Source: Eledone cirrhosa (taxonomy: Eukaryota). Taken from it: DNA of 64,000 nt. The notes beneath the pieces are model-generated. The model had not been told where the DNA came from. It ran no database searches and saw nothing but the letters and a program-made list of their open reading frames with translations. A program made the position numbers and the translations under genes. Shown here one piece after another: positions 314-53,100 of this stretch. The stretch is from assembly GCA_964016885.1 (NCBI GenBank), contig OZ024742.1:40858001-40922000 (forward strand). Direction: 5' to 3'. Position 1 is the stretch's first letter, and each line of letters begins with the position of its first letter.

Positions 314-709
314 TCAAAACTACAAGAAGCACTATCGGCCAATACAAGCCGAAAACTCCGAAGAATATGGAGTGTACATACACTAAAGTATTGGAAGATT
401 ATGGGTAAAAATATATAATAAAAATCACTAAGGAGGTGGATAACATTTTGAACCATATTACAAATATAGTCCAAAGCAAAAAAACTAGAGCTAAACAAAG
501 GTGGTTATATAGAGCGTGAATTATAGTACTATATGTAATACAATATAATATAATATTATATACTTGTAACAATATTAAAATTAAAATTAAAATTAAAAGG
601 CACAATATCCATATGTATATATATACACACACGTACGCACATATACATATACATCAATACACATTTCAACACGCTCCAGTATTTTAATCCTTATATATAT
701 ATATATATA

Positions 710-1515
710 CATATATTTTGCGGTATATACATTATACTTAATTTCATTGTTTTTCCTTTGTATTGGGTATTTCTATATAAGAGTCAGACTAAAATTGTCT
801 GTTGATTAGAAAGATATTTTATGTTCATTATTTGTTAAATTGTTAACCTCCCGCTGAGCTATTTCAGTTATAAAATAGTTCTGTATTGTAACCCCTTGTC
901 TCAAAATATGACGTGTCAAGCCATTTCCAAGATGGCCGAATTTTTTATGAAATTCAAGTTATTTTAGAGCAACCACGATTCAGATGTAGCGAAAAGAATA
1001 TATCTTGAACAACAAACAAACGTTTCATAACAAAGTTTGTGCGCGAGTGTGTGTGTGTGGGGGGGGGTATGTACGTGTGTGTGTATGTACGTTGTATGAG
1101 TGTGTGTATGTGTGTGCGTGTGGGGGGGGGGGTATGTACATGTGTGTGTGTTTGCATGTGTGTGTGTGTTTGCATGTGTGTGTGTTTGCATGAGTGTGTA
1201 TGTACATGTGTGTGTGTTTGCACTCGCGCGAAATTAAACGGAAAACAACGCAGCAAAACGATACCCTACAGTACAATGAATATATTATATATATATATAA
1301 ACGTGAAGGCATGTGGCTGAGTGGTTAGAGAATTGGATTCACAATCTTGAAGTTGTGAGTTCGATTCCTGGACCGGACGATGCGTTATGTCCTTGAGCAA
1401 GACACTTATTTCACGTTGCTCCTTCTACCTGGAGTTGCGACCGATAGATAGTATTAGCAATTGGAAAGACCAATGGAAACATTGTTTCCTCGGTCCGATT
1501 TGACGAAAGTCGATA
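710..1515 (+). repeat. Copy 1 of an ~800-bp local direct duplication (copy 2 at 9028-9845)
   Basis: Near-identical unique sequence, truncated SINE and junction fragment in both copies; differences are mainly in the (GT)n tract. Confidence 0.9.
1303..1422 (+). mobile_element. tRNA-derived SINE family B (CORE/V-like central domain), 3'-truncated
   Basis: A-box-like TGGCTGAGTGG, B-box GAGTTCGATTCC, then tgtccttgagcaagacacttatttcacgttgctcc. Confidence 0.8.
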
Positions 1516-1535
1516 TATATATATATATATATATA

Positions 1536-1718
1536 TAACGAAGGAAATGTGGTAAGGAACCAGGTGGACCATAACGCACCAAAGTACTCAATACTTGAGG
1601 TAGTAGAGTGGGTAATAGGAACCAGTAAGACCCCGACAGCTGAGCTCAAGCCGTTTCGACGGCTAATTCGCCGTCGAAACGGCTTGAGCTCAGCTGTCGG
1701 GGTCTTACTGGTTCCTAT
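1536..1718. mobile_element. Fold-back PLE 3'-terminal element in (TA)n with a perfect 49-bp-arm palindrome centred on a hammerhead stem II
   Basis: Arms 1615-1663 and 1670-1718 are exact reverse complements around loop TAATTC. Each strand reads gacggc..gccgtc-GAAA-cggct..agctg-TC-ggggtc. Confidence 0.75.
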
Positions 1719-3485: not shown

Positions 3486-5986
3486 TTAGGGAGAAGTGTT
3501 TAGACGGGGTCCGTATTTGTTAATAAAGTAAGATTCCTTGCTGATGCGCTGGGTGTGGGTGGCATTATCTTTAAATTTGTAGAGGGGAAAGATTCTGAAG
3601 TTGGGATGATTTTGGGCGGCACAGGTATCAATGTGTTCACTCAGTGGTATTTTCCTGTATTCCCGTATTTTAATTTGGGATCTATGGACAGTCATGCGTT
3701 GGCGGAGGTGTTTTTGGTCTGGCCTATGTATTGTTCTCGACAACCTGAGCAAGTTAATACATATATTAGATTTTCTGATGCGCATGTGAAATTGTGTTTT
3801 ACTATAAAAAGTTGTCCTTCTTTGAAATAGAATTCCGAACCCTCTATTAGGTTGATGCATATGCCACAGTTGGGTCTATCGCATTTTTTTACTGTGGGAT
3901 TCGTTGTTGTGATTGGCAGTACTTTGGCATGTGTTAGGATGTTTTTCATTGACTTAGATTATCTTTTGCTCTTTATAATATCGTGTGTTCGTAGGATTTA
4001 GTTCATTCTATGGTCCTTTTTTCAACACAGGGATGTTCTGGAGGATGGTGTCAAAGGCCTCATTGTTGAGAGGGTTGTGTGTGGAGATGTATGGAAGAGC
4101 TTTTAGTTTCGGTTGATTTACTTTAGGGTGTCTAAGGTCCTGGGTCCTGAGTTTTAGTGCACGTTGGATTCCATTGTCAATTAGTGATGCAGGGTAGTCC
4201 CTGCCTATGAGTGTGTCCTTTAGTTCTTGTAGCCGTAAGTAGCAGGTGTTTTTATTGGAGACTATATTACAGATTCTCTTGGCTAAGTTGTAGGGAATAT
4301 TAATTTTAACGTGTCTAGAGTGGCAAGAGTTGAAAGGAAGATATTGCTTGGAGTCTGTGGGCTTGTAGTATATGTCTGTTTCTATTTTTTTGTTATGGAT
4401 CTTAATGAGGATGTCGAGGAAGGGGAGTTGTTGATGGCTGTATTCCATCGTGAAGTTAATATTCGTGTTGAGCCCATTTATAAGGGTGTGAAATTCTTTA
4501 AGTTTCGGGTGTGAAATTCTTTAAGTTTCTCGATGTTTTCGTGCCAAAGGATGAAGCAGTCATCTAGATATCGCTTCCAGTTCCTTTCTATGTGTAAGTG
4601 GAGAGTGTTTCCAAATTTGTTTAGGACTTTAGTGTAGAGGGTGATTTCCAGGTATCCCATGACTAGGTTGGCATAAGTGGGGGCTGTTTTCGTTCCCATA
4701 GCGGTCCCAGATTTCTGCCTGTAGGGTTTGTTATTGAAAACGAAGTAATTGTTCTCCAAGATAAATTTGAGTCCCTCTATCACGAATTCTTTTTTGATGC
4801 GTTGTGGGAGTTCATTGTGGTAATTATCCAGCCAGAATTGGATAGCTTCTATTCCTAGGTTGTGGGGGATGTTGGAGTATAGGTTGACTACATCGAACGT
4901 CACTAGTAGGGTTTGTTCAGAAAGGGGCATATTAGGGAGGTGATTGAGCATATCTAGGTCGTCCCTTATATAGCTTTTGATGTGTTTGAGAAAAGGCTTG
5001 AGAAGGGTATCAATGAAGTTGCTAAGGCGGTGGGTTTCGCAAGCGGGGCCTGCTATTATAGGTCTTAATTTGAGATCATTGGGTGAGGGGACATTGATGA
5101 CTATGTCTGTGGCTTCCTTGCATGCCTTACTTATTAATTCGCTTTTATGTACTTTAGGGATACCGTAGAAAAGGCTGGATTTACTTGTGAAGTCTGTGAT
5201 GAAGCTGAATTCCTTGTTAGTGAGTCCTTCTTTGTATTGGTTGATCAGAGTTTTTAGGTTTCTCATAATTTTCTGTTGATTGTAGTGTTCAGCCTTTTCG
5301 TAGTATGTTTCGTTTTCCAAAGTGGAGAGCGCTAAGTTGATATTGAATTCTGTCTCCATTAGGACTACTGTACTCCCTTTATCAGCCTCTTTAATTGTTA
5401 TGGTTCTGTCGGTTTTTAATCTATTTAATTCTTCCCATTCTTTCTTGTTGAGGTTTGGCTTGTGTTTTTGTCTGTGCAAGTGTTGGTAAGGGAAGTTTGT
5501 GATGTGTTCACAGAATTCGTCCAGGATTTTATTTCTACCTTTTGATGGGGTGTAATTGCTTCTATTTATGGCTAATGATTCATCCTCATTGTACTGGTCG
5601 AATAGTTCTTCACTGAGTCGTAACTTTCTACAGAAGTCTGTGATATCTTTCTTCATTTCATAGTAGTTAGGACGTAGTGGGGTCGGTGTGAATTTAAGAC
5701 CTTTGGAGAGTAAGTTGATAAGGTTGGGTGTTGGTTCTGCACTAGTTAGATTGATAATTTTTATTACTATCGGTTTCTCCTCCCTGTCTTGTGTTATTTT
5801 GTTTGTCTGTATCTGTGTGCTGTGTCTAAAAAAACGGTTGGGGTAGAGGGGTTGTCTGGTGATGTTAAGTGGTCTCCTGTGTTTGTTATATTCCTTGTTG
5901 TTGTAAAATATGGTTCGGGTTGGTGGTTGTAGATTGAATGGGGTGTTCCTGTACTGCGAGTATGGGTATGTGTTTCTATGTGCCAT
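3486..5986 (-). pseudogene. PLE1 reverse transcriptase + GIY-YIG endonuclease polyprotein, disrupted
   Basis: Motifs ADKG, FYGIPKVHK, LRPII, FDVVNLYSNIP, GTAMGTKTAPTYANL, RYLDD, LPFLD, YYKPT, CxxxxCxxC linker and NLIYVLTCSGCREQYIGQT. A 23-bp duplication at 4484-4529, frameshifts near 4020 and 3710, and two TAA stops near 3960-4000. Confidence 0.92.
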
Positions 5987-6047
5987 GTTGGATTGTGGTG
6001 TTATAGGTGGCCTACGTTGTTGGTTGTACCGTGTGGTGTGGGTTTGT

Positions 6048-6099
<52 letters not shown>

Positions 6100-8544: not shown

Positions 8545-9022
<478 letters not shown>

Positions 9023-9027
9023 CACAC

Positions 9028-9879
<852 letters not shown>

Positions 9880-9989: not shown

Positions 9990-10172
9990 ATTGGCAGTAT
10001 CGATAGAGGGTCAGACGCCATGCTTTGCAGCATAGTTACGTCCCTTTACGAACTGAGTTCAAATCCCGCCGAGGTTAACTTTGCCTTTCTTCCTTACGGG
10101 GTCGATAAAATAAAGTACCAGTAATACACTGGGTAATTGCTGGCCTTGTGCCAAAATTAGAAACAATTATAT
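9990..10172 (+). mobile_element. tRNA-derived SINE family A (Nin/Deu-like central domain)
   Basis: ttggcagtatcg..gagttcaaatcccgccgaggttaactttgcctttc.tccttacggggtcgataaaataaagtaccagt..gctggccttgtgcc..agaaacaattatt. Confidence 0.85.
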
Positions 10173-10253
10173 TAAGTACTGAGTACTCATTATCGTGACG
10201 CTGACTACTAAGCTGATGCAAGCCCACAAAGAATATATATATATATATATATA

Positions 10254-10430
10254 TAACGAATGAGTTGTGGTAAGGAACCAGATGGACCATAACGCACTAG
10301 AGTACTCAATACTTAGGGTAGTAGAGTGGGTAATAGGGGTCATACATGTTCCTATATATATAAATATGACAGTTCGGATCTAGCTATCGAAACGGGTGGA
10401 GCTCAGCCGTCGTGGTCCTGAATCTTTATA
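10254..10430. mobile_element. Second copy of the 1536-1718 fold-back family, diverged
   Basis: 10254-10337 matches 1536-1620. 10368-10417 reads gacagtt..agctatc-GAAA-cgggtggagctcagccg-TC-gtggtc. Confidence 0.65.
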
Positions 10431-10455
10431 TATATATAACAGATTATTTTAATTA

Positions 10456-10488
<33 letters not shown>

Positions 10489-10498
10489 TATATATGTA

Positions 10499-10570
<72 letters not shown>

Positions 10571-10696
10571 AGGAACGATCGACTTTCGTCAAATCGGACC
10601 GAGGACACAATGTTTCCGTTGGTCTTTCCAATTGCTAATACTATCTATCGGTCGCAACTCCAGGTAGAAGGAGCAACGTGAAATATATATATATAT

Positions 10697-10977
10697 ATTA
10701 GAAAGTGAGGTTTTTTTTACAAAATGAAAAATAACCGAGGTGTCCTACACGAGTGAAAGTATAAAAAAAAAAAAGATGAAATCGAAAATGCAACTGGAGT
10801 CTTATTTAAAAAAATATATATATATTTATTTAGTTCCTTTACCATGTGAGAAAAACCACATACCCTCCATCTTAACTGTACTTTTGAAAAGCAGAAGAAC
10901 TGCGAAACCGGTAAAGGAACCAAATAAATATATATATTTTTTTTTAAATAAGACTCCAGTTGCATTTTCGATTTCAT

Positions 10978-10980
<3 letters not shown>
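10697..10980. mobile_element. Fold-back PLE 3'-terminal element in (TA)n with a hammerhead
   Basis: ~10773-10843 is the reverse complement of ~10910-10980; the spacer holds the hammerhead 5' half. Confidence 0.75.
10881..10916 (+). ncRNA. Minimal type-I hammerhead, U3-A8 covariant core
   Basis: ctt-TTGAAAA-GCAG-aagaa-CTGC-GAAA-ccgg-TA-aag, followed by AATAAA at ~10923. Confidence 0.75.
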
Positions 10981-11037
<57 letters not shown>

Positions 11038-11246
11038 ATATTTATAGTTATACTTGGGGAGGGTCATATTTTTGTAATATTGCCAGAATTAATAACAGAA
11101 CACACTCACTGTTTGGTTGGTTTTCGCTTCTCGCTGTCTTTTATATCGGTAATCTAACTTACTCAGTCCTCAATGTTACCATTGACTGACCGACGGTCAA
11201 AAATAATACAGATACAATATAGACACAAACACATATATATAGTTTT

Positions 11247-11288
11247 TCATAAATCTTTCGTTGCACATCTGCAACATCGTCAGTGGTG
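11247..11288 (-). ncRNA. Hammerhead-like motif at the 3' end of PLE2
   Basis: cca-CTGACGA-t-GTTGCA-gatg-TGCAAC-GAAA-gatt-TA-tg. Stem II is perfect; stems I and III are weak. Confidence 0.6.
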
Positions 11289-11526
11289 TTATATTTTCCT
11301 CCTGTTGTGTTGTATGTCTACGCCATTTTTATTCAGTCCGTCTATATATTTATTTATTTATTTGATTGTTTGTTTATTTTATTTCGTCTTCTTTGCGCAT
11401 GCGTTTGCGTGTGTGTATAGTGTTATGTTTGCTGTGTGATGGGTGACTAGTGTGTGTTTATGTGCTTGTTGTTATTGTGCTTGTGTATGTATTTATTTAT
11501 TTATTTATCTTATTTTATTTACTTAT

Positions 11527-14246
11527 TTATACTTCTCTTAGGTCAGTGTTGTTTGTTTGGGTGTTGTTGTTATTCCATTCATTCTTTCTGTTTAGCTTTG
11601 GTCTTCTAATTTCTATTTCACTGGCCTCTCTGATTTGCCTATCTGCTGGGTCATTTCTATGTTTAGATATTATTCTAATTTCTATGTTGTCTATGTTACC
11701 GTCATGTTGTTGTCTAGCATGTTCGTATAGTACTGACCCGTTTTTTCGTCCTTTTAGTTCCCCCCAGTGTTGGTCTATCCTTTCACCTATGCTACGAGCT
11801 GTCTCACCTATGTATGTTGTTGTCATGTTTCTGCAAGTACCCTCTGTACATCTTATGCTATAGACTACGTTTCTAGTTTTACAGTTTATCCGGAGGTTCA
11901 CCTTACATATGATACATTTCCTATTGGTACAGTGGGTTTTCTTAAAAGGGTAGGTTTTGCTGATCAGGGATTTTATGGTGGTTCCTGGCTTTTCCACCTT
12001 TATTTCCACCTTTATTTTTAAGTGGGTCTTTCTCAGGGCCTTTCTACACTGGTTAGCTAATTTCCCTCCAGGGGTGGCGTCCATAAACATGACACTCTGG
12101 TATCTCTGGTTGTCGTACCATGAGGTGGCTTTCCCTATCTTATGTCTAGCCCAATCTAAGCTATTCCATGATTTGCTCCTGTATAATGGGCAAATTCCTT
12201 TCATGTCCAGTTCTATGAGGGTCTTATACTTTTCCATGGCTCCTTCGTATACTCTGACTCTGTCTCTTTGGTTGTAGCCAGAGAACTGCATGCGGTTGTT
12301 GAAGTGTTGGATGTGTCTTTCCATTTCTGTTGAGTCGCACATGCGGGATACATTCTTCATCACTCGTACCAAATCTGCGATCAGAATATTAAACTTAGCA
12401 CTACTGGACATTGCTGAGTTTTTGAGTATCAGGTATTTGGAGGCCATGGGTTTAGCATAGTGTGAGTGGAGAATTTGGGCTCTCTCGTCTATAGTGTTAA
12501 TCCAGAGTTCTGTGTCTAATACAGGTAGTCTATTGTTAGGGTGTTTGGAAGGGAAGTCGATAGTTACAGTTATACTCTGGTGTATGGAATTAGCTATCTG
12601 CTGGATGCTTTCCATCGTGCTACGTTCTAAATCAAACTTGTTAGTGCTCTCTACTGGGGGTGTTCTTATAACTATATTGATATCGTCTACATAACGAGAG
12701 TACATGATGAGGTCTATGGAGCTTTCATTAAGGAGATCTTTAAGTCTCCTTTCCCACCATACCATGAAAAGATTGGCAACATCACCAGCTATGCTGACGC
12801 CGATGGCTGCTCCCTCATTTTGGGTGTAGATTTTCTCGTTGAACTTAAATATGTGGCCCCTTAGGGTAGTTTTGATACTAGCCCCTATTTCATGTGCGAC
12901 CATTTTTCTTACCTGATCATTGTTTTGGGGGGTCCGTATAGCTTTGGTCCACCCAATCCACCTTCCCATGGGAGTCTTTTTTGCCATTGAGGTTATGGTG
13001 GGGGGTCTACCTCTTATAGGTCTACTGGGGCAGAAACATCTAAGGTCATGGCTGTCTAGGTAGTCAGTGTCGTAGGTAAGTCTAAGTAGGAGGCCCAGTT
13101 CGTCTGTGTCGACGTCGCAGAACTCCACCTCACTCTCAATGATCATCTCCACACATCTTTTCACAGCAAAATCAATGTTAATGGATGGGTACAGTGACAC
13201 CACATCCATGCTGCCTATTATACAGTTGGATAGGCTCCTGTTTTTGTTGCACTCACTGATTCTGGGGACATCTTGATTATGGGCGTATAACCATTGAGAG
13301 GAAGTAGGAGATCCTGTAGTTGCTAGCTATATTAGCTCCGCATACGGGTCTTGTTGGTGGTCCTGTTGTCGGGTCGTCGACTGTCTTGTGGTCTTTGCGG
13401 AGCCCATACAAGGGTGGTATGCCATTGTTAGACGCCTGGAAGTTGTTGGCAGTGCGTCTGCTTGGCTTTAGGATGTCAGTCCACATCATCATGTGAGCGT
13501 TGAGGATTTTTTCTCTCCCATCGTGTGTTTGTTGTGCAATTTCGCTCGTGTTGGTGATGTGGGGTTGCATAGCCTCGATGTAGTTCGGCATGCTATCTAT
13601 TGACATCCTACCAGACTTATCCGTGGGTAGACACACTACCTCACCATCCCTTGTGCGCTGCTTGAGGCTAACCAAGCCTTCTACAGGTTTCGTCCCAAGT
13701 TGTTGGGCCTCTGGTCTGCTCTGTCTCCTAGTATACCTGTCTACTATTTGTCTAATCTTATTTCTAGCTATGGTGAACTGTGCCTCTGTCTCGTCATCTA
13801 TTTGTTGTGGTATGCAAACTCTTTTATTAAAGGGTAACCTCGTAGGATAGATATTACCCATCTTATATGTTTTGTCAGCTGGGTTGTAAAATAGTTTCTC
13901 TAAGGGGTTGTCATTATATCTATCGTCATAGTTGTATGTGTTGCTATTATTGTTATCAGGGTGGTTGTTGTTGTTTCTATCATTAGCATTATTATTATTG
14001 TTATGATTGCTAGATGTATTGTTGTTTACTTCACCGTTATTGTTGTTGTTGTTACTGTTATTTCTACCATTGTGGTTGTTACTTTTATTATGTTTCTTGT
14101 TTTTGTTGTGTCTATCATTGATGTTGCTACATGTACTATTTCCATTATTACCACTGTGGTTATTGTTGTTGTTGTTCGTATTGTTACTGTGGTCGCTGTT
14201 GCTGTGTCTGTGGTTAATGTTTCTATTATTATTATTATTGTGGTTG
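11527..14246 (-). pseudogene. PLE2 RT + GIY-YIG polyprotein with Asn-rich N-terminal region, one frameshift near 13270
   Basis: TDKSGRMS, LYGLRKDHK, PTRPVC, DVVSLYPSI, GAAIG, RYVDD, LPVLD, HYAKPMAS, CxxxxCxxC, NVVYSIRC..YIGETAR, RQIREA. Confidence 0.92.
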
Positions 14247-14564
14247 TGTTGCAGATGTGCAACGAAAGATTTATGATAAACTATATATATGTGTTTGTGT
14301 CTATATTGTATCTGTATTATTTTTGACCGTCGGTCAGTCAATGGCAACATTGAGGACCGAGTAAGTTAGATTACCGATATAAAAGACACAGAAGCGAAAA
14401 CCAACCAAACAGTGAGTGTGTTCTGTTATTAATTCTGGCAATATTACACAAATATGACCCTCTCCAAGTATAACAATATTTGTTTCGACACACGATTTCA
14501 TATAAAAAACCTCGCAAAACTAATGTATATTTATATATATATATATAACAGATTATTTGAATTA

Positions 14565-14945
<381 letters not shown>

Positions 14946-21564: not shown

Positions 21565-22012
21565 AGGGCGGTCGATTGGCAGTATCAGTAGAGGGTCGGA
21601 CGTCATGCTTTGCAGCAAGAGTTACGGCCCTTTATGATCTGAGTTCAAATCCTACCGAGGTTAACTTTGCTTTTCATCCTTACGGGGTCGATAAAATAAA
21701 GTACCAGTCACGCACTGGGGTCGATTTAATCGACTTGCCACTCCCCCAAAGTTGCTGACCTTGTGCTTATATAAGAAACCAAATTATCGAACCGAGTTAT
21801 TATTATTATTATTATTATTTGCCTACTTGTGGCGGTGGATTGGCAGTATCGGTAGAGGGTTGGACGCCGTGCTTCGAGTTACGGCCCTTTACAGTCTGAG
21901 TTCAATTCCTGCCGAGGTCAACTTTGCTTTTCATCCTTATGGGGTCGATAAAATAAAGTACCACTAATTCACTGGTAATTGCTGGCCTTGTGCCAAATGT
22001 AGAAACAATTAT
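21565..22012 (+). mobile_element. Two consecutive SINE family A copies (21565-21785, 21830-22012)
   Basis: Full head, central domain and tail in both; (ATT)n between them. Confidence 0.85.
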
Positions 22013-22424
22013 TTTTTGCCTGCTTTTTCTTCGCCCTACTTCAACTGCCCCCTGAAGAATGTTTTTGAACAAGGATGTGTGACTTGACCAGGTGAGCTTT
22101 TGTCCTTTACGGGCAAGGAGTGATTTCTAACAACATTTACCCTCAAACAAAATTAAGATTTTAGCTCAAGCCAAAACTGTAATCGGAAATTGATTGCGGG
22201 ATAAAGTGAGAATGAAATTGCTTTTATTAACTTCTGTCGACAATTTGTCCACATTTAATGTAACCGAAATCGTTAGACCTCTTTATGACTCATGCTCGGA
22301 TATCTAATATTTAATTTAAATGACGATTGCAAACTTTACATTTTATGTTGAGTCCAGTTACCGCTAGGTTTAATAACTACTTCAGTTACATAAAACAAAA
22401 TCAAATAATTATGTATCTGTAAAT

Positions 22425-23485: not shown

Positions 23486-24054
23486 AGTCTGGTTGCGGGA
23501 GCACTACAGGGTGGATCAGTGTACCACCCCCATCAATCTCTTTTTACGAATCAGCCTTTGGGTTGTCGCAAAGTCTTTACCTCCAGGATTATGAGGGCAT
23601 TGCAGAGTAGAGCAGTGTAGGATCGTGGAGGCACTACAGGGTGGAGTAATGTACCCCTCCCTCCACCCATCTCTATCGCGAGCCAGAACTTGAGATGTGG
23701 CGAAATCTATACTAGTTTATTCTGTGATGTTATTCACCCAACATTTACTCTCAAACAAAAATATTTTAACTAAAGCCAAAACTATAATCGGAAATTGATT
23801 GCGAAATAGTGTGAAAATGAAATTGCTTTTATTACTTGTATCGACAACTGTTGCACACTTTATGTAACAGCAATAATTATGCCTTCTTTTATTCATTATA
23901 TTTCACGACATTCAGTCATTTCTTGGCATTTTATGTTGCTAAATATAATCTTGGCTAAAAGGTTTGCCAAAAACGAAGATATTAAATATTTGTGGCTTTT
24001 ATTCGCATATAAGTGGCAGTTAATCGTTTCTGAAAATTCCAAAGAAGAAAAAAC

Positions 24055-24980
24055 AATAATTGTTTCTACTTTTGGCACAAGGCCAGCAATTACCCAGTGT
24101 ATTACTGGTACTTTATTTTATCGACCCCGTAAGGATGAAAGGCAAAGTTAACCTTGGCGGAATTTGAACTCTGAATGGCAAGGGCCGTAACTCTATGCGT
24201 CAAAGCATGGCGTCCGACCCTCTACCGATACTGCCAATCCACCGCCAATCCACCAAAAAACAATAATGATAATGATTTCTATTATAGACACAAGGCCATA
24301 TATTTAGAGTGATGTTGATTACATTGAATCTAATTGCCTCTTACTTATTTTATTGGCCTTGAACAAATGAAACGCATCGAAGATCTCGGTGATATTTGAA
24401 GGTAGAGATGTAACTAAATGTTTAGACGATTCCATTTCATTTCTTGATTGAAACCATTTCAACATATTTAAATTTCTTCTTCTTTTTAGTTTTCTTCTTC
24501 TTCTTCTTCTTCTTCTTCTTCTCGGGGCGAACACAAACCTCTCGGAGGCTGAAGTCACCAAAGCACTTAAAGCACTCAAATGTGTCAAATCCTCTGGGGA
24601 GGATGAACATCAGTTCGAGATGCTATGTTAAATAATGGTACCTAATTTAGGCACAAGGCCAGCAATTTGGGGGAGAGGAGAAAGTCGATTACTTAGCTGG
24701 TATTTTGTTTTATAGACTTGGAAGGATTCAAAGTTGATTAAATCGACCCCAGTGCAGGACTGGTACTTTATTTTATCGATCCCATAAGGATGAAAGGCAA
24801 AGTTAACCTCGGCGGGATTTGAACTCAGACCGTAAAGAGTCATAACTCTATGCTACAAAGCATGGTGTCTGACCCTCTACCGATACTGCCAATCCACCGC
24901 CCTCTTCCTCTGATAAATAATTGTTTCTACATTTGGCACAAGGCCAGCAATTACCCATTGCATTACTGGTACTTTATTTC
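24055..24980 (-). mobile_element. Cluster of SINE family A copies (24055-24246, 24630-24900, partial 24916-24980)
   Basis: Reverse complement of the family consensus. Confidence 0.8.
24522..24628 (+). mobile_element. Short RTE LINE fragment (same family as 37700-38300)
   Basis: ANTNLSEAEVTKALKALKCVKSSGEDEHQFEML, homologous to 38058-38150. Confidence 0.6.
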
Positions 24981-25046
24981 AATTGATGTAAGCCACTAAT
25001 TTATATTGGAGAAAAGCGCAAAGACAGTAACGCAGTCTCTTTTCTA

Positions 25047-25355
25047 TGGGGTGACCCAAAACTCACAATACCATATCAAAACATTTTAACACGTTTAAAT
25101 TGAAAAAATAATTGTTTCTACTTTAGGCACAAGGCCAGCAATTACCCAGTGCATTGCTGGTACTTTATTTTATCGACCCCGTAAGGATGAAAGGCAAAGT
25201 CAACCTCGGCGGGATTTGAACTCAGATCGTAAAGGGACGTAACTATGCTGGAAAGCATGGCGTCCGACTCTCTACCGATACTGCCAATCCAAAAATAATA
25301 ATTGTAAAAATGTTATTATATTTTTTAATGGTCTAGTGACTTTTGGGCCACCCTA
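25047..25355. mobile_element. Tc1/mariner-type MITE interrupted by a SINE A copy (25107-25290, minus)
   Basis: TIRs tggggtgacccaaaactcac / gtgacttttgggccacccta with TA on both sides; aataattgt occurs at both ends of the SINE (candidate TSD). Confidence 0.7.
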
Positions 25356-38539: not shown

Positions 38540-38922
38540 CAATAATAGTTTTTACTTTTGGCACAAGGCCAGCAATTACCCCAGTGCATTACTGGTACTT
38601 TATTTTATCGACCCCGTAAGGATGAAAGGCAAAGTTAACTTCGGCTGAATTTGAACTCAGACCGTAAAGGGGTATAACTCTATGCTTCAAAGCATGGCGT
38701 CCGACCCTCTACCGATACTACCAATCCACCAATAATAATTGTTTCTACTTTTGCCACAAGGCCAGCAATTATTCCAGTACATTACTGGTACTTTATTTTA
38801 TCGACCCCGTAAAGATGAAAGGCAAAGTTAACCTCGGCAGGATTTGAACTCAGATCATAAAGGGACGTAACTCTAAGCTGCAAAGCATGGTGTCCGACCC
38901 GCTACCGATACTACCAATCCAC
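38540..38922 (-). mobile_element. Tandem pair of SINE family A copies
   Basis: Two head-to-tail ~190-bp copies. Other diverged or partial copies at 32153-32266, 36710-36865, 39965-40130 and 41575-41725. Confidence 0.85.
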
Positions 38923-39489
38923 CAATAATAATGTACTATTGGTAGTGAATCGGTAAACTCCTCGTCAATGGTTCCGTAGATGTCTTCCTTCTCTTGTATC
39001 TTGCGTACTACATTGACATATATGTATGTATATATATATATATATGTGTATGTATACATGTATGTATGTATGTATTTATGTATGTATATATGTATGTATG
39101 TATGTATGTATATATGTATGTATGTCTGTATATGTATGTATCTATGTGTGTGTATGTATGTATTTATGTATGTGTGTGTATGTATGTATGTATATATGTA
39201 TGTATGTGTATGTATGTATGTATATATGTATGTATGTGTGTATGTATGTATGTGTATGTATATATGTATGTATATATGCATGTATGCATACATACTTGAA
39301 TTTATGTATACATGTATATATAAATAGATATATGTATGTATACAGATGTGTGTGTGTGTACATGCATGTATATAGATCTGTGTATATATGTATTCATGTA
39401 TGTATATCTGAATACATGAGTGTATTTAGACCAGAAGCAAACCAAACAAGTAAACATCAATAAGTGTTTGTCTTGTTTGTTTATCAATT

Positions 39490-40161: not shown

Positions 40162-40244
<83 letters not shown>

Positions 40245-40252
<8 letters not shown>

Positions 40253-40433
40253 AGGCTTCTACAGGACTAGAACTGTTTCATTCGGACTCAATCATCAGAG
40301 GCTTCCTGATGATTTCTACCGAATGAAACAGTTCTAGTCCTGTAGAAGCCTTTCTATATTAAATATTTATACTCTGCTTTGTATTGAGTACCTTACTTAC
40401 TATGGTTACCCCCGATTGAACCCGGGATAAACT

Positions 40434-43569: not shown

Positions 43570-43752
43570 GCAGTATCGGTAGAGGGTCGGACGCCATGAT
43601 TTGCAGCGTGTAGTTACGGCCCTTTACTGTCTGAGTTCAAATCCCGCCGAGGTTAACTTTGCCTTTCATCCTTACGGGGTCGATAAAATATAGTACCAGT
43701 AATGCACTGGAATAATTGCTGGCCTTGTGCTAAAAGTAGAAACAATTATTAT
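43570..43752 (+). mobile_element. SINE family A
   Basis: Matches the family consensus. Confidence 0.85.
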
Positions 43753-44130
43753 AAGCAAATGGGAGACCACGTGCTGGCCGCCCCGTGGCCCCGGCGGACA
43801 GTTAAACCCAATTTCGTGTACATAACAGTCGAATAACTGGGACTTATGAGTTACCATTTTTTTACCATACTTTTTGCTAATTGTGTGTAAACGTATAACT
43901 CGTGGGCATTTGTATAAAGGTATAATGTGTGTGTAAAGGTATAATATGTGTACTTGAATATATGTATACATGTTCCAAAATAATGCATATGTATGACTGT
44001 GTATGGGCGTGTGTGCGAGATATTAACCGTAATTCAATATTCAGTAATGTTTTGATAAAACCACAGAGTAACAGCAATACCAAACTGAGTATCGATAAAT
44101 TACGTGGAAATATGATTACATTTAAGATTT

Positions 44131-47100
44131 TCACTTTTGCTTTCTTCAGAACACTTACATTCCTATCCCACCGTCTCTCTCTTTATCTATCTATCTATCA
44201 CTTTTGCTTTCTTCAGAACACTTACATTCCCATCCCCACCGTCTCTCTCTTTATCTATCTATCTATCACTTTTGCTTTCTTCAGAACACTTACATTCCCA
44301 TCCCCACCGTCTCTCTCTTTATCTATCTATCTATCACTTTTGCTTTCTTCAGAACACTTACATAACCATCCCCAGCGTCTCTCTCTTTATCTATCTGTCA
44401 CTTTTGCTTTCTTCAGAACACTTACATTCCCATCCCCACCGTCTCTCTCTTTATCTATCTATCACTTTTGCTTTCTTCAGAACACTTACATTCCCATCCC
44501 CACCGACTCTCTCTTTATCTATCTATCTATCACTTTTGCTTTCTTCAGAACACTTACATTCCCATCCCCACCGTCTCTCTCTTTATCTCTCTGTCACTTT
44601 TGCTTTCTTCAGAACACTTATATTCCCATCCCCACCGTCTCTCTCCTTATCTATCTATCACTTTTGCTTTCTTCAGAACACTTACATTCCCATCCCCACC
44701 GTCTCTTTCTTTATCTATCTATCTATCACTTTTGCTTTCTTCAGAACACTTACATTCCCATCCCCACCGTCTCTCTCTTTATCTATCTGTCACTTTTGCT
44801 TTCTTCAGAACACTTACATTCCCATCCCCACCGTCTCTCTCTTTATCTATCTGTCACTTTTGCTTTCTTCAGAACACTTACATTCCCATCCCCACCGTCT
44901 CTCTCTTTATCTATCTATCACTTTTGCTTTCTTCAGAACACTTACATTCCCATCCCCACCGTCTCTTTCTTTATCTATCTATCTATCACTTTTGCTTTCT
45001 TCAGAACACTTACATTCCCATCCCCAGCGTCTGTCTCTTTATCTATCTATCACTTTTGCTTTCTTCAGAACACTTACATTCCCATCCCCGCCGTCTCTCT
45101 CTTTATCTATCTGTCACTTTTGCTTTCTTCAGAACACTTACATTCCCATCCCCACCGTCTCTCTCTTTATCTATCTATCTATCACTTTTGCTTTCTTCAG
45201 AACACTTACATTCCCATCCCCGGCGTCTCTCTCTTTATCTATCTGTCACTTTTGCTTTCTTCAGAACACTTACATTCCCATCCCTACCGTCTCTCTCTTT
45301 ATCTATCTATCACTTTTGCTTTCTTCAGAACACTTACATTCCCAACCCCACCGTCTCTCTCTTTATCTATCTATCACTTTTGCTTTCTTCAGAACACTTA
45401 CATTCCCATCCCTACCGTCTCTCTCTTTATCTATCTATCACTTTTGCTTTCTTCAGAACACTTACATTCCCATCCCCAGCGTCTCTCTCTTTATCTATCT
45501 ATCACTTTTGCTTTCTTCAGAACACTTACATTCCCATCCCCACCGTCTCTCTCTTTATCTATCTATCTATCACTTTTGCTTTCTTCAGAACACTTACATT
45601 CCCATCCCCACCGTCTCTCTCTTTATCTCTCTGTCACTTTTGCTTTCTTCAGAACACTTATATTCCCATCCCCACCGTCTCTCTCCTTATCTATCTATCA
45701 CTTTTGCTTTCTTCAGAACACTTACATTCCCATCCCCACCGTCTCTTTCTTTATCTATCTATCTATCACTTTTGCTTTCTTCAGAACACTTACATTCCCA
45801 TCCCCACCGTCTCTCTCTTTATCTATCTGTCACTTTTGCTTTCTTCAGAACACTTACATTCCCATCCCCACCGTCTCTCTCTTTATCTATCTGTCACTTT
45901 TGCTTTCTTCAGAACACTTACATTCCCATCCCCACCGTCTCTCTCTTTATCTATCTATCACTTTTGCTTTCTTCAGAACACTTACATTCCCATCCCCACC
46001 GTCTCTTTCTTTATCTATCTATCTATCACTTTTGCTTTCTTCAGAACACTTACATTCCCATCCCCAGCGTCTGTCTCTTTATCTATCTATCACTTTTGCT
46101 TTCTTCAGAACACTTACATTCCCATCCCCGCCGTCTCTCTCTTTATCTATCTGTCACTTTTGCTTTCTTCAGAACACTTACATTCCCATCCCCACCGTCT
46201 CTCTCTTTATCTATCTATCTATCACTTTTGCTTTCTTCAGAACACTTACATTCCCATCCCCGGCGTCTCTCTCTTTATCTATCTGTCACTTTTGCTTTCT
46301 TCAGAACACTTACATTCCCATCCCTACCGTCTCTCTCTTTATCTATCTATCACTTTTGCTTTCTTCAGAACACTTACATTCCCAACCCCACCGTCTCTCT
46401 CTTTATCTATCTATCACTTTTGCTTTCTTCAGAACACTTACATTCCCATCCCTACCGTCTCTCTCTTTATCTATCTATCACTTTTGCTTTCTTCAGAACA
46501 CTTACATTCCCATCCCCAGCGTCTCTCTCTTTATCTATCTATCACTTTTGCTTTCTTCAGAACACTTACATTCCCATCCCCACCGTCTCTCTCTTTATCT
46601 ATCACTTTTGCTTTCTTCAGAACACTTACTTCCCCATCCCCACCGTCTCTCTCTTTATCTATCTATCACTTTTGCTTTCTTCAGAACACTTACATTCCCA
46701 TCCCCACCGTCTCTCTCTTTATCTATCTGTCACTTTTGCTTTCTTCAGAACACTTACATACCCATCCCCACCGTCTCTCTCTTTATCTATCTATCTATCA
46801 CTTTTGCTTTCTTCAGAACACTTACATTCCCATCCCCAGCGTCTCTCTCTTTACCTATCTATCTATCACTTTTGCTTTCTTCAGAACACTTACATTCCCA
46901 TCCCCACCGTCTCTCTCTTTATCTATCTATCACTTTTGCTTTCTTCAGAACACTTACTTTCCCATCCCCACCGTCTCTCTCCTTATCTATCTATCTATCA
47001 CTTTTGCTTTCTTCAGAACACTTACATTCCCATGGCCACCGTCTCTCTCTTTATCTATCTATCACTTTTGCTTTCTTCAGAACACTTACATTCCCATCCC

Positions 47101-50100
47101 CACCGTCTCTCTCTTTATCTATCACTTTTGCTTTCTTCAGAACACTTACTTTCCCATCCCCACCGTCTCTCTCCTTATCTATCTATCTATCACTTTTGCT
47201 TTCTTCAGAACACTTACATTCCCATCCCCACCGTCTCTCTCTTTATCTATCTATCTATCTATCACTTTTGCTTTCTTCAGAACACTTACATTCCCATCCC
47301 CAGCGTCTCTCTCTTTATCTATCACTTTTGCTTTCTTCGGAACACTTACATTCCCATCACCACCGTCTCTCTCTTTATCTATCTATCACTTTTGCTTTCT
47401 TCAGAACACTTACATTCCCATCCCCACCGTCTCTCTCTTTATCTATCTATCACTTTTGCTTTCTTCAGAACACTTACATTCCCATCCCCACCGTCTCTCT
47501 CTTTATCTATCTATCACTTTTGCTTTCTTCAGAACACTTACATTCCCATCCCCACCGTCTCTCTCTTTATCTATGTATCACTTTTGCTTTCTTCAGAACA
47601 CTTACATTCCCATCCCCACCGTCTCTCTCTTTATCTATCTATCACTTTTGCTTTCTTCAGAACACTTACATTCCCATCCCCAGCGTCTCTCTCTTTATCT
47701 ATCTATCACTTTTGCTTTCTTCAGAACACTTACATTCCCATCCCCACCGTCTCTCTCTTGATCTATCTATCACTTTTGCTTTCTTCAGAACACTTACATT
47801 CCCATCCCCACCGTCTCTCTCTTTATCTATATATCTATCACTTTTGCTTTCTTCAGAACACTTACATTGCCATCCCCACCGTCTCTCTCTTTATCTATCT
47901 ATCTATCACTTTTGCTTTCTTCAGAACACTTACATTCCCATCCCCAGGGTCTCTCTCTTTATCTATCTATCACTTTTGCTTTCTTCAGAACACTTACATT
48001 CCCATCCCCACCGTCTCTCTCTTTATCTATCTATCACTTTTGCTTTCTTCAGAACACTTACATTCGCATCCCCACCGTCTCTCTCTTTATCTATCTATCT
48101 ATCAATTTTGCTTTCTTCAGAACACTTACATTCCCATCCCCACCGTCTCTCTCTTTATCTATCTATCACTTTTGCTTTCTTCAGAACAAGTTACATTCCC
48201 ATCCCCACCGTCTCCCTCTTTATCTGTCTATCACTTTTGCTTTCTTCAGAACACTTACATTCCCATCCCCACCGTCTCTCTCTTTATCTATCTATCACTT
48301 TTGCTTTCTTCAGAACACTTACATTCCCATCCCCACCGTCTCTCTCTTTATCTATCTGTCACTTTTGCTTTCTTCAGAACACTTACATTCCCATCCCCAC
48401 CGTCTCTCTCCTCATCTATCTATCACTTTTGCTTTCTTCAGAACACTTACATTCGCATCCCCACCGTCTCTCTCTTTATCTATATATCTATCACTTTTGC
48501 TTTCTTCAGAACACTTACATTCCCATCCCCACCGTCTCTCTCTTTATCTATCTATCACTTTTGCTTTCTTCAGAACACTGACATTCCCAACCCACCGTCT
48601 CTCTCTTTATCTATCTATCACATTTGCTTTCTTCAGAACACTTACATTCCTATCCCCACCGTCTCTCTCCTTATCTATCTATCACTTTTGCTTTCTTCAG
48701 AACACTTACATTCCCATCCCCACCGTCTCTCCCTTTATCTATCTGTCTATCACCTTTGCTTTCTTCAGAACACTTACATTCCCATCCCCAGCGTCTCTCT
48801 CCTTATCTATCTATCACTTTTGCTTTCTTCAGAAGACTTACATTCCCATCCCCAACGTCTCTCTCTTTATCTATCTATCACTTTTGATTTTTTCAGAACA
48901 CTTACATTCCCATCCCCACCGTCTCTCTCTTTATCTATCTATCTATCACTTTTGCTTTCTTCAGAACACTTACATTCCCATACCCACCGTCTCTCTCTTT
49001 ATCTATCTATCACTTTTGCTTTCTTCAGAACACTTACATTCCCATCCCCAGCGTCTCTTTCTTTATCTATCTATCTATCACTTTTGCTTTCTTCAGAACA
49101 CTTACATTCCCATCCCCAGCGTCTCTCTCTTTATCTATCTATCTATCACTTTTGCTTTCTTCAGAACACTTACATTCCCATCCCCACCGTCTCTCTCTTT
49201 ATCTATCTATCACTTTTGCTTTCTTCAGAACACTTACATTCCCATCCCCACCGTCTCTCTCTTTATCTATCACTTTTGCTTTCTTCAGAACACTTACTTT
49301 CCCATCCCCACCGTCTCTCTCCTTATCTATCTATCACTTTTGCTTTCTTCAGAACACTTACATTCCCATCCCCACCGTCTCTCTCTTTATCTATCTATCT
49401 ATCACTTCTGCTTTCTTCCGAACACTTACATTCCCATCCCCAGCGTCTCTCTCCTTATCTATCTATCACTTTTGCTTTCTTCAGAACACTTACATTCCCA
49501 TCCCCAACGTCTCTCTCTTTATCTATCTATCACTTTTGCTTTCTTCAGAACACTTACATTCCCATCCCCACCGTCTCTTTCTTTATCTATCTATGTATCA
49601 CTTTTGCTTTCTTCAGAACACTTGCATTCTCATCCCCACCGTCTCTCTCCTTATCTATCTATAAATTTTGATTTTTTTCAGAACACTTACATTCCCACCC
49701 CCACCGTCTCTCTCTTTATCTATCTATCTATCACTTTTGCTTTCTTCAGAACACTTACATTGCCATACCCACCGTCTCTCTCATTATCTATCTATCACTT
49801 TTGCTTTCTTCAGAACACTTACATTCGCATCCCCACCGTCTCTCTCTTTATCTATCTATCTATCAATTTTGCTTTCTTCAGAACACTGACATTCCCATCC
49901 CCACCGTCTCTCTCTTTATCTATCTATCACTTTTGCTTTCTTCAGAACACTTACATTCCCATACCCACCGTCTCTCTCTTTATCTATCTATCACTTTTGC
50001 TTTCTTCAGAACACTTACATTCCCATCCCCACCGTCTCTCTCCTTATCTATCTATCACTTTTGCTTTCTTCAGAACACTTACATTCCCATCCCCACCGTC

Positions 50101-53100
50101 TCTTTCTTTATCTATCTATCTATCACTTTTGCTTTCTTCAGAAGACTTACATTCCCATCCCCACCGTCTCTCTCTTTATCTATCTGTCACTTTTGCTTTC
50201 TTCAAAACACTTACATTCCCATCCCCACTGTCTCTCTCTTTATCTATCTATCACTTTTGCTTTATACAGAACACTTACATTCCCATCCCCACCGTCTCTT
50301 TCTTTATCTATCTATCTATCACTTTTGCTTTCTTCAGAACACTTACATTCCCATCCCCAGCGTCTGTCTCTTTATCTATCTATCACTTTTGCTTTCTTCA
50401 GAACACTTACATTCCCATCCCCACCGTCTCTCTCTTTATCTATCTATCTATCACTTTTGCTTTCTTCAGAACACTTACATTCCCATCCCCGGCGTCTCTC
50501 TCTTTATCTATCTGTCACTTTTGCTTTCTTCAGAACACTTACATTCCCATCCCCACCGTCTCTCTCTTTATCTATCTATCACTTTTGCTTTCTTCAGAAC
50601 ACTTACATTCTCATCCCCACCGTCTCTCTCCTTATCTATCTATCACTTTTGATTTCTTCAGAACACTTACATTCCCATCCCCACCGTCTCTCTCCTTATC
50701 TAACTATCACTTTTGCTTTCTTCAGAACACTTACATTCCCATCCCCACCGTCTCTCTCTTTATCTATCTATCACTTTTGCTTTCTTCAGAACACTTACAA
50801 TCCCATCCCCACCGTCTCTCTCTTTATCTATCTGTCACTTTTGCTTTCTTCAGAACACTTACATTCCCATCCCCACCGTCTCTTTCTTTATCTATCTATC
50901 TATCACTTTTGCTTTCTTCAGAACACTTACATTCTCATCCCCACCGTCTCTCTCCTTATCTATCTATCACTTTTGATTTTTTCAGAACACTTACATTCCC
51001 ATCCCCACCGTCTCTCTCTTTATCTATCTATCTATCACTTTTGCTTTCTTCAGAACACTTACATTGCCATACCCACCGTCTCTCTCTTTATCTATCTGTC
51101 ACTTTTGCTTTCTTCAGAATACTTACATTCCCATCCCCACCGTCTCTCTCTTTATCTATCTATCTATCACTTTTGCTTTCTTCAGAACACTTACATTCCC
51201 ATCCCCACCGTCTCTCTCTTTATCTATCTATCACTTTTGCTTTCTTCAGAACACTTACATTCCCATCCCCACCGTCTCTCTCAATAATCTATCTATCACT
51301 TTTGCTTTCTTGAGAACACTTACATTCGCATCCCCACCGTCTCTCTCTTTATCTATCTATCTATCAATTTTGCTTTCTTCAGAACACTTACATTCCCATC
51401 CCCACCGTCTCTCTCTTTATCTATCTATCACTTTTGCTTTCTTCAGAACACTGACATTCCCAACCCACCGTCTCTCTCTTTATCTATCTATCACATTTGC
51501 TTTCTTCAGAACACTTACATTCCTATCCCCACCGTCTCTCTCCTTATCTATCTATCACTTTTGCTTTCTTCAGAACACTTACATTCCCATCCCCACCGTC
51601 TCTCCCTTTATCTATCTGTCTATCACCTTTGCTTTCTTCAGAACACTTACATTCCCATCCCCAGCGTCTCTCTCCTTATCTATCTATCACTTTTGCTTTC
51701 TTCAGAAGACTTACATTCCCATCCCCAACGTCTCTCTCTTTATCTATCTATCACTTTTGCTTTCTTCAGAACACTTTCATTCCCATCCCCACCGTCTCTC
51801 TCTTTATCTATCTGTCACTTTTGCTTTCTTCAGAACACTTACATTCCCATCCCCACCGTCTCTTTCTTTATCTATCTATCTATCACTTTTGCTTTCTTCA
51901 GAACACTTACATGCTCATCCCCACCGTCTCTCTCCTTATCTATCTATCACTTTTGATTTTTTCAGAACACTTACATTCCCATCCCCACCGTCTCTCTCTT
52001 TATCTATCTATCTATCACTTTTGCTTTCTTCAGAACACTTACATTGCCATACCCACCGTCTCTCTCATTATCTATCTATCACTTTTGCTTTCTTGAGAAC
52101 ACTTACATTCGCATCCCCACTGTCTCTCTCTTTATCTATCTATCTATCACTTTTGCTTTCTTCAGAACACTTACATTCGCATCCCCACTGTCTCTCTCTT
52201 TATCTATCTATCTATCACTTTTGCTTTCTTCAGAACACTTACATTCGCATCCCCACCGTCTCTCTCTTTATCTATCTATCACTTTTGCTTTCTTCAGAAC
52301 ACTTACATTCCCATCCGCACAGTCTCTCTCTTTATCTATCTATCACTTTTGCTTTCTTCAGAACACTTACATTCCCATCCCCACCGTCTCTCTCTTTATC
52401 TATCTATCACTTTTGCTTTCTTCAGAACACTTACATTCCCATCCCCACCGTCTCTCTCCTTATCTATCTATCACTTTTGCTTTCTTCAGAACACTTACAT
52501 TCGCATCCCCACCGTCTCTCTATTTATCTATCTATCACTTTTGCTTTCTTCAGAACACTTACATTCCCATCCCCAGCGTCTCTCTCTTTATCTATCTATC
52601 ACTTTTGCTTTCTTCAGAACACTTACATTCCCATCCCCACCGTCTCTCTCGTTATCTATCTATCACTTTTGCTTTCTTCAGAACACTTACATTCCCATCC
52701 CCACCGTCTCTCTCTTTATCTATCTATCACTTTTGCTTTCTTCAGAACACTTACATTCCCAACCCACCGTCTCTCTCTTTATCTATCTATCACATTTGCT
52801 TTCTTCAGAACACTTACATTCCCATCCCCACCGTCTCTCTCCTTATCTATCTATCACTTTTGCTTTCTTCAGAACACTTACATTCCCATCCCCAGCGTCT
52901 CTCTCCTTATCTATCCATCACTTTTGCTTTCTTCAGAACACTTACATTCCCATCCCCACCGTCTCTCTCTTTATCTATCTATCACTTTTGCTTTCTTCAG
53001 AACACTTACATTCCCATCCCCACCGTCTCTCTCTTTATCTATCTGTCACTTTTGCTTTCTTCAGAACACTTACATTCCCATCCCCACCGTCTCTTTCTTT

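What the first reader, a model, noticed from the sequence alone, without database searches (positions are those of the whole stretch)
11047..14525. PLE2 inverted pseudo-LTR starts exactly at the ribozyme stem II
Seen: the inverted arm at 14247 begins tGTTGCAgatgTGCAAC-GAAA, i.e. at stem II and without CTGACGA, while the 3' copy has the full core. The arms differ at several positions and the inverted arm has ~50 nt more tail. With 1615-1718 (stem II), 10843 (stem III) and 40299 (stem I), four inversion junctions fall in hammerhead helices. Inference: ribozyme structure sets PLE template-switch points.
Basis: partly seen in the sequence, partly recalled or inferred. Interest (0 to 1): 0.72.

Follow-up and report, generated by a model that had tools for sequence, protein, structure and literature searches.

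The report
Penelope inversions turn at RNA ends
This is an ordinary back-to-back insertion of a Penelope-type jumping gene, and its turning point inside the ribozyme helix is not a favoured site; across four such families in this genome the most favoured turning point is the predicted start of the RNA, and in one family a small class turns, on both arms, at the ribozyme's predicted cut, which likely records that ribozyme cutting RNA in the living animal.

Summary
The local observation is right: the inverted arm starts at 14247, one base before hammerhead stem II, without the core, and has about 45 nt more tail. A 12-bp target duplication shows one insertion. The inference fails. In this family (A), arm ends are no denser in the hammerhead than downstream (10 of 96 arms, p=0.54), and no stem II fold-back exists genome-wide (0 matches; 5,781 stem II copies). 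The window's other three junctions belong to families B, C and D. There, arms stop about 30 nt behind a TATA-like box, which falls inside (B), at the edge of (C) or 35 nt before (D) the ribozyme. In B, roughly 170 hairpins have both arms starting at the predicted cut, often with untemplated bases between them; cut-plus-start hybrids are far fewer. 56 of 58 family A pairs join one short-tail and one long-tail arm. Best reading: two cDNAs, likely primed at two start sites, run to the RNA's 5' end or stop early and are joined head to head. The layout is known; I found the RNA-end rule in no paper searched, but this scan's unreviewed notes report it for other DNA.

The parts
11035..11046 (+). left copy of the 12-bp target-site duplication, in a (TA)n tract
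11047..14247 (-). family A main arm: 5'-truncated element, -3057 to +239 relative to stem II, short-tail end at 11047
   Evidence: against a natural tandem copy (L061)
11256..11283 (-). hammerhead core, bulged base, 6-bp stem II (11260-11275) and GAAA of the 3' pLTR; helices I and III only weakly predicted
11321..11341 (-). YY1-like motif (11321-11329) and, about 10 nt before it, the place where a cluster of family A arms begins (predicted RNA start, about 11338-11341)
   Evidence: the motif name is recalled, its position in human L1 is from PMC4908685
11527..13326 (-). RT core, Cx4CxxC linker and GIY-YIG-like C-terminus (599 aa frame)
   Evidence: RVT_1 E=1.5e-4, below the curated cut-off; endonuclease read from motifs only
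13277..14246 (-). upstream part of the ORF in another frame (frameshift near 13277-13326), with an Asn-rich segment in which the arm is cut off
14247..14524 (+). inverted arm, -1 to +285: starts at the bulged T before stem II (14248-14263), long tail; 1 nt of overlap with the main arm
14524..14535 (+). right copy of the target-site duplication
1537..1718 (.). family B hairpin: long-tail arm (+5 to +140) and short-tail arm (+6 to +60), both starting just behind the predicted RNA start
10683..10981 (.). family D pair: long-tail arm 10683-10843 (-) starts in stem III (+68); short-tail arm from 10844 (+) starts at +2 behind the predicted RNA start; U3-A8 core at 10884-10890
40232..40371 (.). family C hairpin core: + arm starts at 40300 (first base of stem I, 30 nt behind the family's TATA box); - arm starts at the core (+7)

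Best explanation
The locus is one insertion of an endonuclease-bearing Penelope-like element made of two arms joined head to head, and the joint likely forms where two separately primed cDNAs ended, not where a ribozyme helix redirected the enzyme. Shown: one arm ends at a short-tail site and the other at a long-tail site; either arm can be the longer; arm 5' ends pile up about 30 nt behind a TATA-like box in families B, C and D and just before a YY1-like motif in A; a small family B class starts on both arms at the predicted cut. Inferred: both strands of a nicked (TA)n target prime reverse transcription at the two internal start sites; each cDNA runs off the RNA's 5' end (transcription start, or ribozyme-cut end) or falls off early; the two 3' ends are joined through 0-5 nt of homology or a few filler bases; both cDNAs usually come from one RNA molecule or one RNA dimer. 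The focal stem II junction is an early stop of this kind, perhaps helped by the shared TGTTG between the AAC-rich segment and the base of stem II.
For: Tail rule: 56 of 58 distinct family A pairs are short plus long; the short-tail arm reaches further 5' in 32, the long-tail arm in 24 (pairs drawn from all fetched loci, not only the systematic set). No hammerhead excess in A: 10 ends per 4,984 nt at risk against 17 per 10,786 downstream, p=0.54. RNA-start clusters, with 0 = first T of the TATA-like box + 30: D 51 of 100 arms within -5..+5; B 21 of 30 and 16 of 30 with another anchor; C 16 of 23 distinct arms within -6..+10 (7 copies of one duplicated locus dropped). For C the box was predicted first and then found: 74 of the 100 listed matches have its first T exactly 30 nt before stem I. 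A: 8 ends in a 21-nt window at the motif, p=0.004, window chosen after seeing the data. Cut class in B: 19 of 30 stored loci have both arms at +39..+44; 61 of 100 listed by eye; in an unfiltered hairpin search, 22 of 50 centres have the length of a double cut +-1 nt, 0 of 50 are centred on the 6-bp CAGCTG palindrome. About 170 double-cut hairpins (29 of 50 by eye, times 299) against about 25 cut-plus-start hybrids among all 100 matches (by eye). Arms of one insertion nearly always share a subfamily. In vitro, a PLE protein nicks and extends both strands and starts at two sites that match the tail ends (PMC11167929).
Against: No RNA data: RNA starts and cleavage are inferred from DNA. No cut class was seen in family C (0 of 48 matches, but my filter could not show the exact double cut), and only 1 of 70 family D arms starts at the cut. 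Family A's cut site could not be assigned. All hammerhead folds have unremarkable z-scores (0.37 to -1.04). PMC11167929 found no RNA reads ending at the cut, no need for cleavage, and no start-site difference between strands. Fold-back with later asymmetric deletion would give the same sequences. A small pile of family A ends at -7 (about 21 of 95 rows, by eye) is unexplained. The same junction pair recurs (L206 like the focal copy; L210 and L211), so local sequence matters. Junction overlaps come from BLAST ends and allow mismatches. Samples are the first matches on contig C1, and the two arms of one insertion are not independent.
Confidence: 0.68

Rival explanations
1. Hammerhead helices stall the reverse transcriptase or let the cDNA snap back, and so fix the inversion points.
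For: The focal arm starts at the base of stem II; 3 systematic inverted arms start at -3, -2 and +3; a pile at -7; 4 of 100 family D arms at +68..+76; loop III palindrome hairpins in B and a related family.
Against: No excess over neighbouring sequence in A (p=0.54; stem II p=0.44); 0 stem II fold-backs; in D the main cluster lies outside the ribozyme; loop III junctions are explained by 6-8 nt of self-homology without folding.
Confidence: 0.07
2. One cDNA runs to the RNA's 5' end, folds back and copies itself up to the short-tail site; unequal arms such as the focal pair come from later deletion of the palindrome's centre.
For: Explains why both arms share the same 5' end type and subfamily, and the microhomology and filler at joints. 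Self-priming was proposed in PMC3846280.
Against: Needs a second step in the 32 of 56 pairs where the short-tail arm is the longer, here deletion of 3 kb from one arm only; many solo copies end at the short site, so it is a primary end; L208 has arms from two subfamilies; RT starts at both sites in vitro (PMC11167929).
Confidence: 0.17
3. The short hairpins are a non-autonomous element that spreads as a ready-made palindrome, so the clusters reflect a few master copies.
For: Tens of thousands of near-identical arms (40,391 and 22,446 matches).
Against: Centres differ from copy to copy; full-length copies with the same pLTR exist for B (L241, L242); tails are always one short and one long.
Confidence: 0.05
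4. Self-priming on an antisense transcript produces the head-to-head layout (model of PMC3846280).
For: Published reading of palindromes at inverted junctions.
Against: Does not predict that arms stop at the sense-strand TATA+30 position or at a sense-strand ribozyme cut.
Confidence: 0.03

Closest known systems
Insertion units of C-terminal EN+ Penelope-like elements (PMC8557442 Fig. 2 text; PMC3846280)
   Same: pLTR, partial tandems, adjacent inverted 5'-truncated copy, 30-40 bp tail at one end only, target duplication, (TA)n targets, TATA and Inr-like motifs in the pLTR, Asn-rich ORF segments, palindromes at junctions.
   Different: The passages read do not place junctions at the transcription start or at the ribozyme cut, and PMC3846280 favours self-priming on an antisense template. 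Tails here are 45-60 nt (A) and 80 nt (B).
Poseidon_Ac in vitro system (PMC11167929)
   Same: Both target strands nicked and extended; two internal RT start sites that match the tail ends; AT-rich targets.
   Different: No start-site difference between strands and no sign of cut RNA ends there; here nearly every pair is one short plus one long, and a cut-site class exists in family B.
Hammerheads of metazoan PLEs (PMC4209133)
   Same: Type I motifs in pLTRs, bulged base before stem II (A), U3-A8 core variant (B, D), palindromic helix III.
   Different: Family B has a 38-nt loop II that holds the TATA-like box and the predicted RNA start; the paper states that in vivo evidence of cleavage is absent.
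L1 twin priming (recalled, not read)
   Same: Second target nick primes a second cDNA; inversion joined by microhomology.
   Different: In L1 the second primer lands upstream, so the arms do not overlap; here both arms carry the element's 3' end.

Membership tests
EN+ Penelope-like element | PLE-type RT in a single ORF | tested here: met
   RVT_1 E=1.5e-4, below cut-off; DKS variant of the DKG motif and YVDD read; one ORF of about 1,200 aa with one frameshift in the L061 copy
EN+ Penelope-like element | C-terminal GIY-YIG endonuclease with CCHH | tested here: inconclusive
   Motifs read by eye (VVY..C....C...YIG, two His, R/E/N); no Pfam match
EN+ Penelope-like element | pLTRs, partial tandems, inverted 5'-truncated copy, one-sided tail | tested here: met
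Neptune or Nematis clade | CX2-5CxxC linker between RT and EN | tested here: met
   Cx4CxxC in P0001; definition from PMC8557442
Neptune or Nematis clade | RT phylogeny | not tested
   no reference sequences fetched
Type I hammerhead, family A | core boxes and stem II with G10.1-C11.1 | tested here: met
   30 of 30 loci L031-L060 keep the core
Type I hammerhead, family A | helices I and III around an NUH triplet | tested here: inconclusive
   weak fold, z=0.37; no Rfam match
Type I hammerhead, family B | three helices around the core (U3-A8) and a GUC triplet | tested here: met
   minimum-energy fold gives the three-way junction, z=-0.35; no covariation data, the 4 copies printed with the upstream part are identical there
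Type I hammerhead, all families | self-cleavage | not testable with these tools
   indirect only: family B arms starting at the predicted cut

The most novel reading that the evidence does not exclude
Inverted Penelope insertions are a fossil 5'-end map of germ-line RNA: most arms run off the transcription start, and about 2% of family B arms run off a ribozyme-cut end. Family B's promoter starts the RNA inside loop II, so the front copy of the ribozyme is born halved and only the read-through 3' copy can cut. Both arms then copy the same cut fragment, which shows cleavage in vivo and twin priming on one RNA or one RNA dimer.
Probability: 0.5. Interest if true: 0.75.

Novelty: new member of a known kind. 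Interest (0 to 1): 0.55.

Why it matters
How Penelope-like elements make their inverted ends, and whether their hammerheads cut in vivo, are stated as open in the papers read (PMC8557442, PMC4209133, PMC11167929). The focal junction says nothing special. The family-wide counts turn both questions into simple tests: named transcription starts, one named cleavage site, and a rule that the two arms start at different tail sites yet share a 5' end type.

Tried and rejected
Rfam scan of the window: no match. Canonical CTGANGA near family B's GAAA: 19 matches, all look like chance joins; the core turned out to be the U3-A8 variant. An intron in family B's loop II: no GT donor in the loop; dropped. 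Inr-like TCATTT as family B's start: the ends fit TATA+30 (4-5 nt further 3') better. One search's filter was out of register, so it lists point mutants too and could not show stem II fold-backs; one search tested those directly. One search's filter was also out of register. A scripted tally's listing was not obtained; its counts are by eye. Two source RNAs for the focal arms: the arms differ at a recurrent indel but other differences look private; undecided. tblastn of the ORF against phages: no match, uninformative. Paper searches found no paper that places PLE junctions at transcription starts or cut sites; subscription papers and supplements were not seen, and supplements of PMC11167929 and PMC8557442 could bear on this. 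No earlier notes near this window.

Full report
Observation. The window lies at G000:C3:40858001-40922000 in a 3.0-Gb genome. The element runs on the minus strand from 14247 to 11047 and encodes an Asn-rich segment, an RT, a Cx4CxxC linker and a GIY-YIG-like end. Its 3' pLTR has the hammerhead core and a 6-bp stem II. The inverted arm starts at 14247, the bulged base before stem II, and ends about 45 nt further into the tail than the main arm. A 12-bp duplication flanks the whole unit, so both arms arrived in one event.

Family A test. The stem II motif has 5,781 exact copies and an anchor near the tail 14,512. I fetched the surroundings of the first 100 anchor matches on contig C1 and mapped arm ends on a natural tandem copy. 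Of 104 arms called, 8 were dropped as edge-cut, internal tandem units or local duplicates; one match (L157) gave no alignment. Among the 96 left, 10 end in the hammerhead (-18..+48) per 4,984 nt at risk, against 17 per 10,786 nt just downstream (p=0.54); stem II holds 3 (p=0.44). Ends are denser near the tail everywhere (0.13-0.20 per 100 nt, falling to 0.06-0.08 beyond -150), so a ribozyme near the tail collects junctions by position alone. A perfect fold-back on stem II has 0 matches genome-wide. One window is enriched: -72..-52, 8 ends, p=0.004, chosen after looking; these arms begin up to about 10 nt before a YY1-like motif. In human L1 the proposed YY1 site lies at 13-21 (PMC4908685, passages). 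The focal joint has 1 nt of overlap; L206 joins the same two places with 5 nt of overlap. By BLAST ends, 29 of 58 junctions overlap by 2 nt or more, against 14% for random exact joins; BLAST ends allow mismatches, so this is a rough comparison.

Tail rule. 56 of 58 distinct inverted pairs join a short-tail arm (about +240) to a long-tail arm (+262..+299); the short-tail arm reaches further 5' in 32 and the long-tail arm in 24. In the focal pair neither arm contains the other, so one cannot be a plain copy of the other. Arms of one insertion nearly always belong to one subfamily; L208 is an exception.

The other three junctions. They belong to families B (40,391 matches with up to one mismatch), C (22,446) and D (12,239). 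In D, long copies show a TATAAAA box, and 51 of 100 arms end within 5 nt of the position 30 nt behind its first T; 30 align further upstream, 4 end at +6..+34, 6 at +35..+76 (the ribozyme; one more at +79) and the rest beyond. For C no upstream sequence was in hand, so I predicted a box 30 nt before the cluster and searched: 181 matches, and 74 of the 100 listed have exactly that spacing. There the start coincides with the first base of stem I; 16 of 23 distinct arms end at -6..+10. In B the native pLTR folds into a type I hammerhead with a U3-A8 core (a variant described in PMC4209133, passages) and a long loop II that holds a TATTTAAA box; 21 of 30 arms end within 5 nt of its +30 position, 16 of 30 with a second anchor. 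So the four junctions share a promoter, not a helix.

A cut-site class. A filtered search for family B long-tail arms that break within 12 nt before the predicted GUC cut gave 204 matches among 7,461 anchored arms. In 19 of the 30 stored loci both arms start at the cut; by eye 61 of the 100 listed do, 6 more have one arm there, and 33 start at the 12 positions before it or are internal deletions. Many have one extra A or T between the arms. An unfiltered search for short hairpins gave 299 events; of 50 listed, 22 have the centre length of a double cut +-1 nt, about 29 by eye with fillers, 8 are centred on the 8-bp palindrome of loop III and none on the 6-bp palindrome next to it. Microhomology alone therefore does not explain the class. 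Hybrids of a cut arm and a start-site arm number about 25 of the 100 matches (by eye), far below the roughly 170 double cuts, although start-site arms are the common type. The two arms are thus not drawn independently. The window has its own example at 10336. Against generality: none was seen in C (imperfect filter), 1 of 70 in D, and in a related family only about 5 of 38 short hairpins have a double-cut length while 21 are centred on loop III.

Mechanism. Shown: the positions above. From the literature: a PLE protein nicks and extends both strands and starts at two internal sites matching the tail ends (PMC11167929, parts 1 and 2 of 4 read). Inferred: each target strand primes one cDNA, one at each start site; the cDNAs stop at the RNA's 5' end or earlier and are joined. 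A transcript from a pLTR promoter carries start sites 60-350 nt from its front, which gives the short hairpins; in B it begins inside the ribozyme, so only a read-through copy could cut, and the freed 3' piece gives the smallest hairpins (20 plus 100 nt). One RNA, an RNA dimer, or fold-back with later deletion cannot be told apart from sequence.

Comparison. The layout is that of known EN+ PLEs (PMC8557442, passages; PMC3846280, passages); the linker points to Neptune or Nematis, untested by tree. The bioRxiv retrozyme paper (10.64898/2026.07.22.740005, passages) did not address junctions. Searches found no paper placing junctions at transcription starts or cut sites; supplements and subscription papers were not seen. 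This scan's unreviewed notes report the same readings on other genomes and on other pieces of this one. I had set down the start-site reading before and found the cut class; the pointer to PMC3846280 came from those notes. They are not independent support.

Verdict. Observation partly confirmed; the helix rule is not supported; the locus is an ordinary member of a known kind. The family-wide pattern is the result of interest: junctions mark predicted RNA 5' ends. Interest 0.55.

Noticed in passing
window 3500-6060 (-): A second, unrelated RT-bearing element (RVT_1 E=3.8e-7) with a GIY-YIG-like end, bounded by (TA)n; likely another truncated PLE.
   Followed up: no
window 44100-63950: Tandem array of about 290 units of 64 or 68 nt.
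   Followed up: no
   Followed up: partly
window 10430-10500 and 14536-14610: A similar stretch of about 70 nt lies on both sides of the 4-kb nest of insertions.
   Followed up: no
window 694-1534 and 9011-9863: 855-bp direct duplication, 93% identical.
   Followed up: no
window 9990-10175, 21567-22026, 24041-25305, 38540-38932, 43570-43755: Many copies of a short dispersed repeat, SINE-like.
   Followed up: no
L206 (G000:C4:197.71 Mb); L210 and L211: L206 joins the same two places as the focal copy (-3054 and -1) with a 5-nt overlap but has other variants and tail end; L210 and L211 share one junction with the tails swapped. Junctions recur independently.
   Followed up: partly
L370: An otherwise intact family B pLTR with 9 extra bases exactly at the predicted cut, as if RT had jumped between the two cleavage products.
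   Followed up: partly
L164, L208, L211: Junction fillers made of short tandem copies of the adjoining sequence.
   Followed up: no
listing; L111, L118, L130, L131, L216-L219: Family A arms that start at -7 (second base of the core), many joined straight to (TA)n; unexplained.
   Followed up: partly
L061-L062 (G000:C1:14.38-14.40 Mb): Tandem family A units of about 4,146 bp, 99.7-100% identical, with an inverted arm.
   Followed up: partly
families B and C, long tails: Both carry a similar short motif in the long tail although their ribozymes differ.
   Followed up: no
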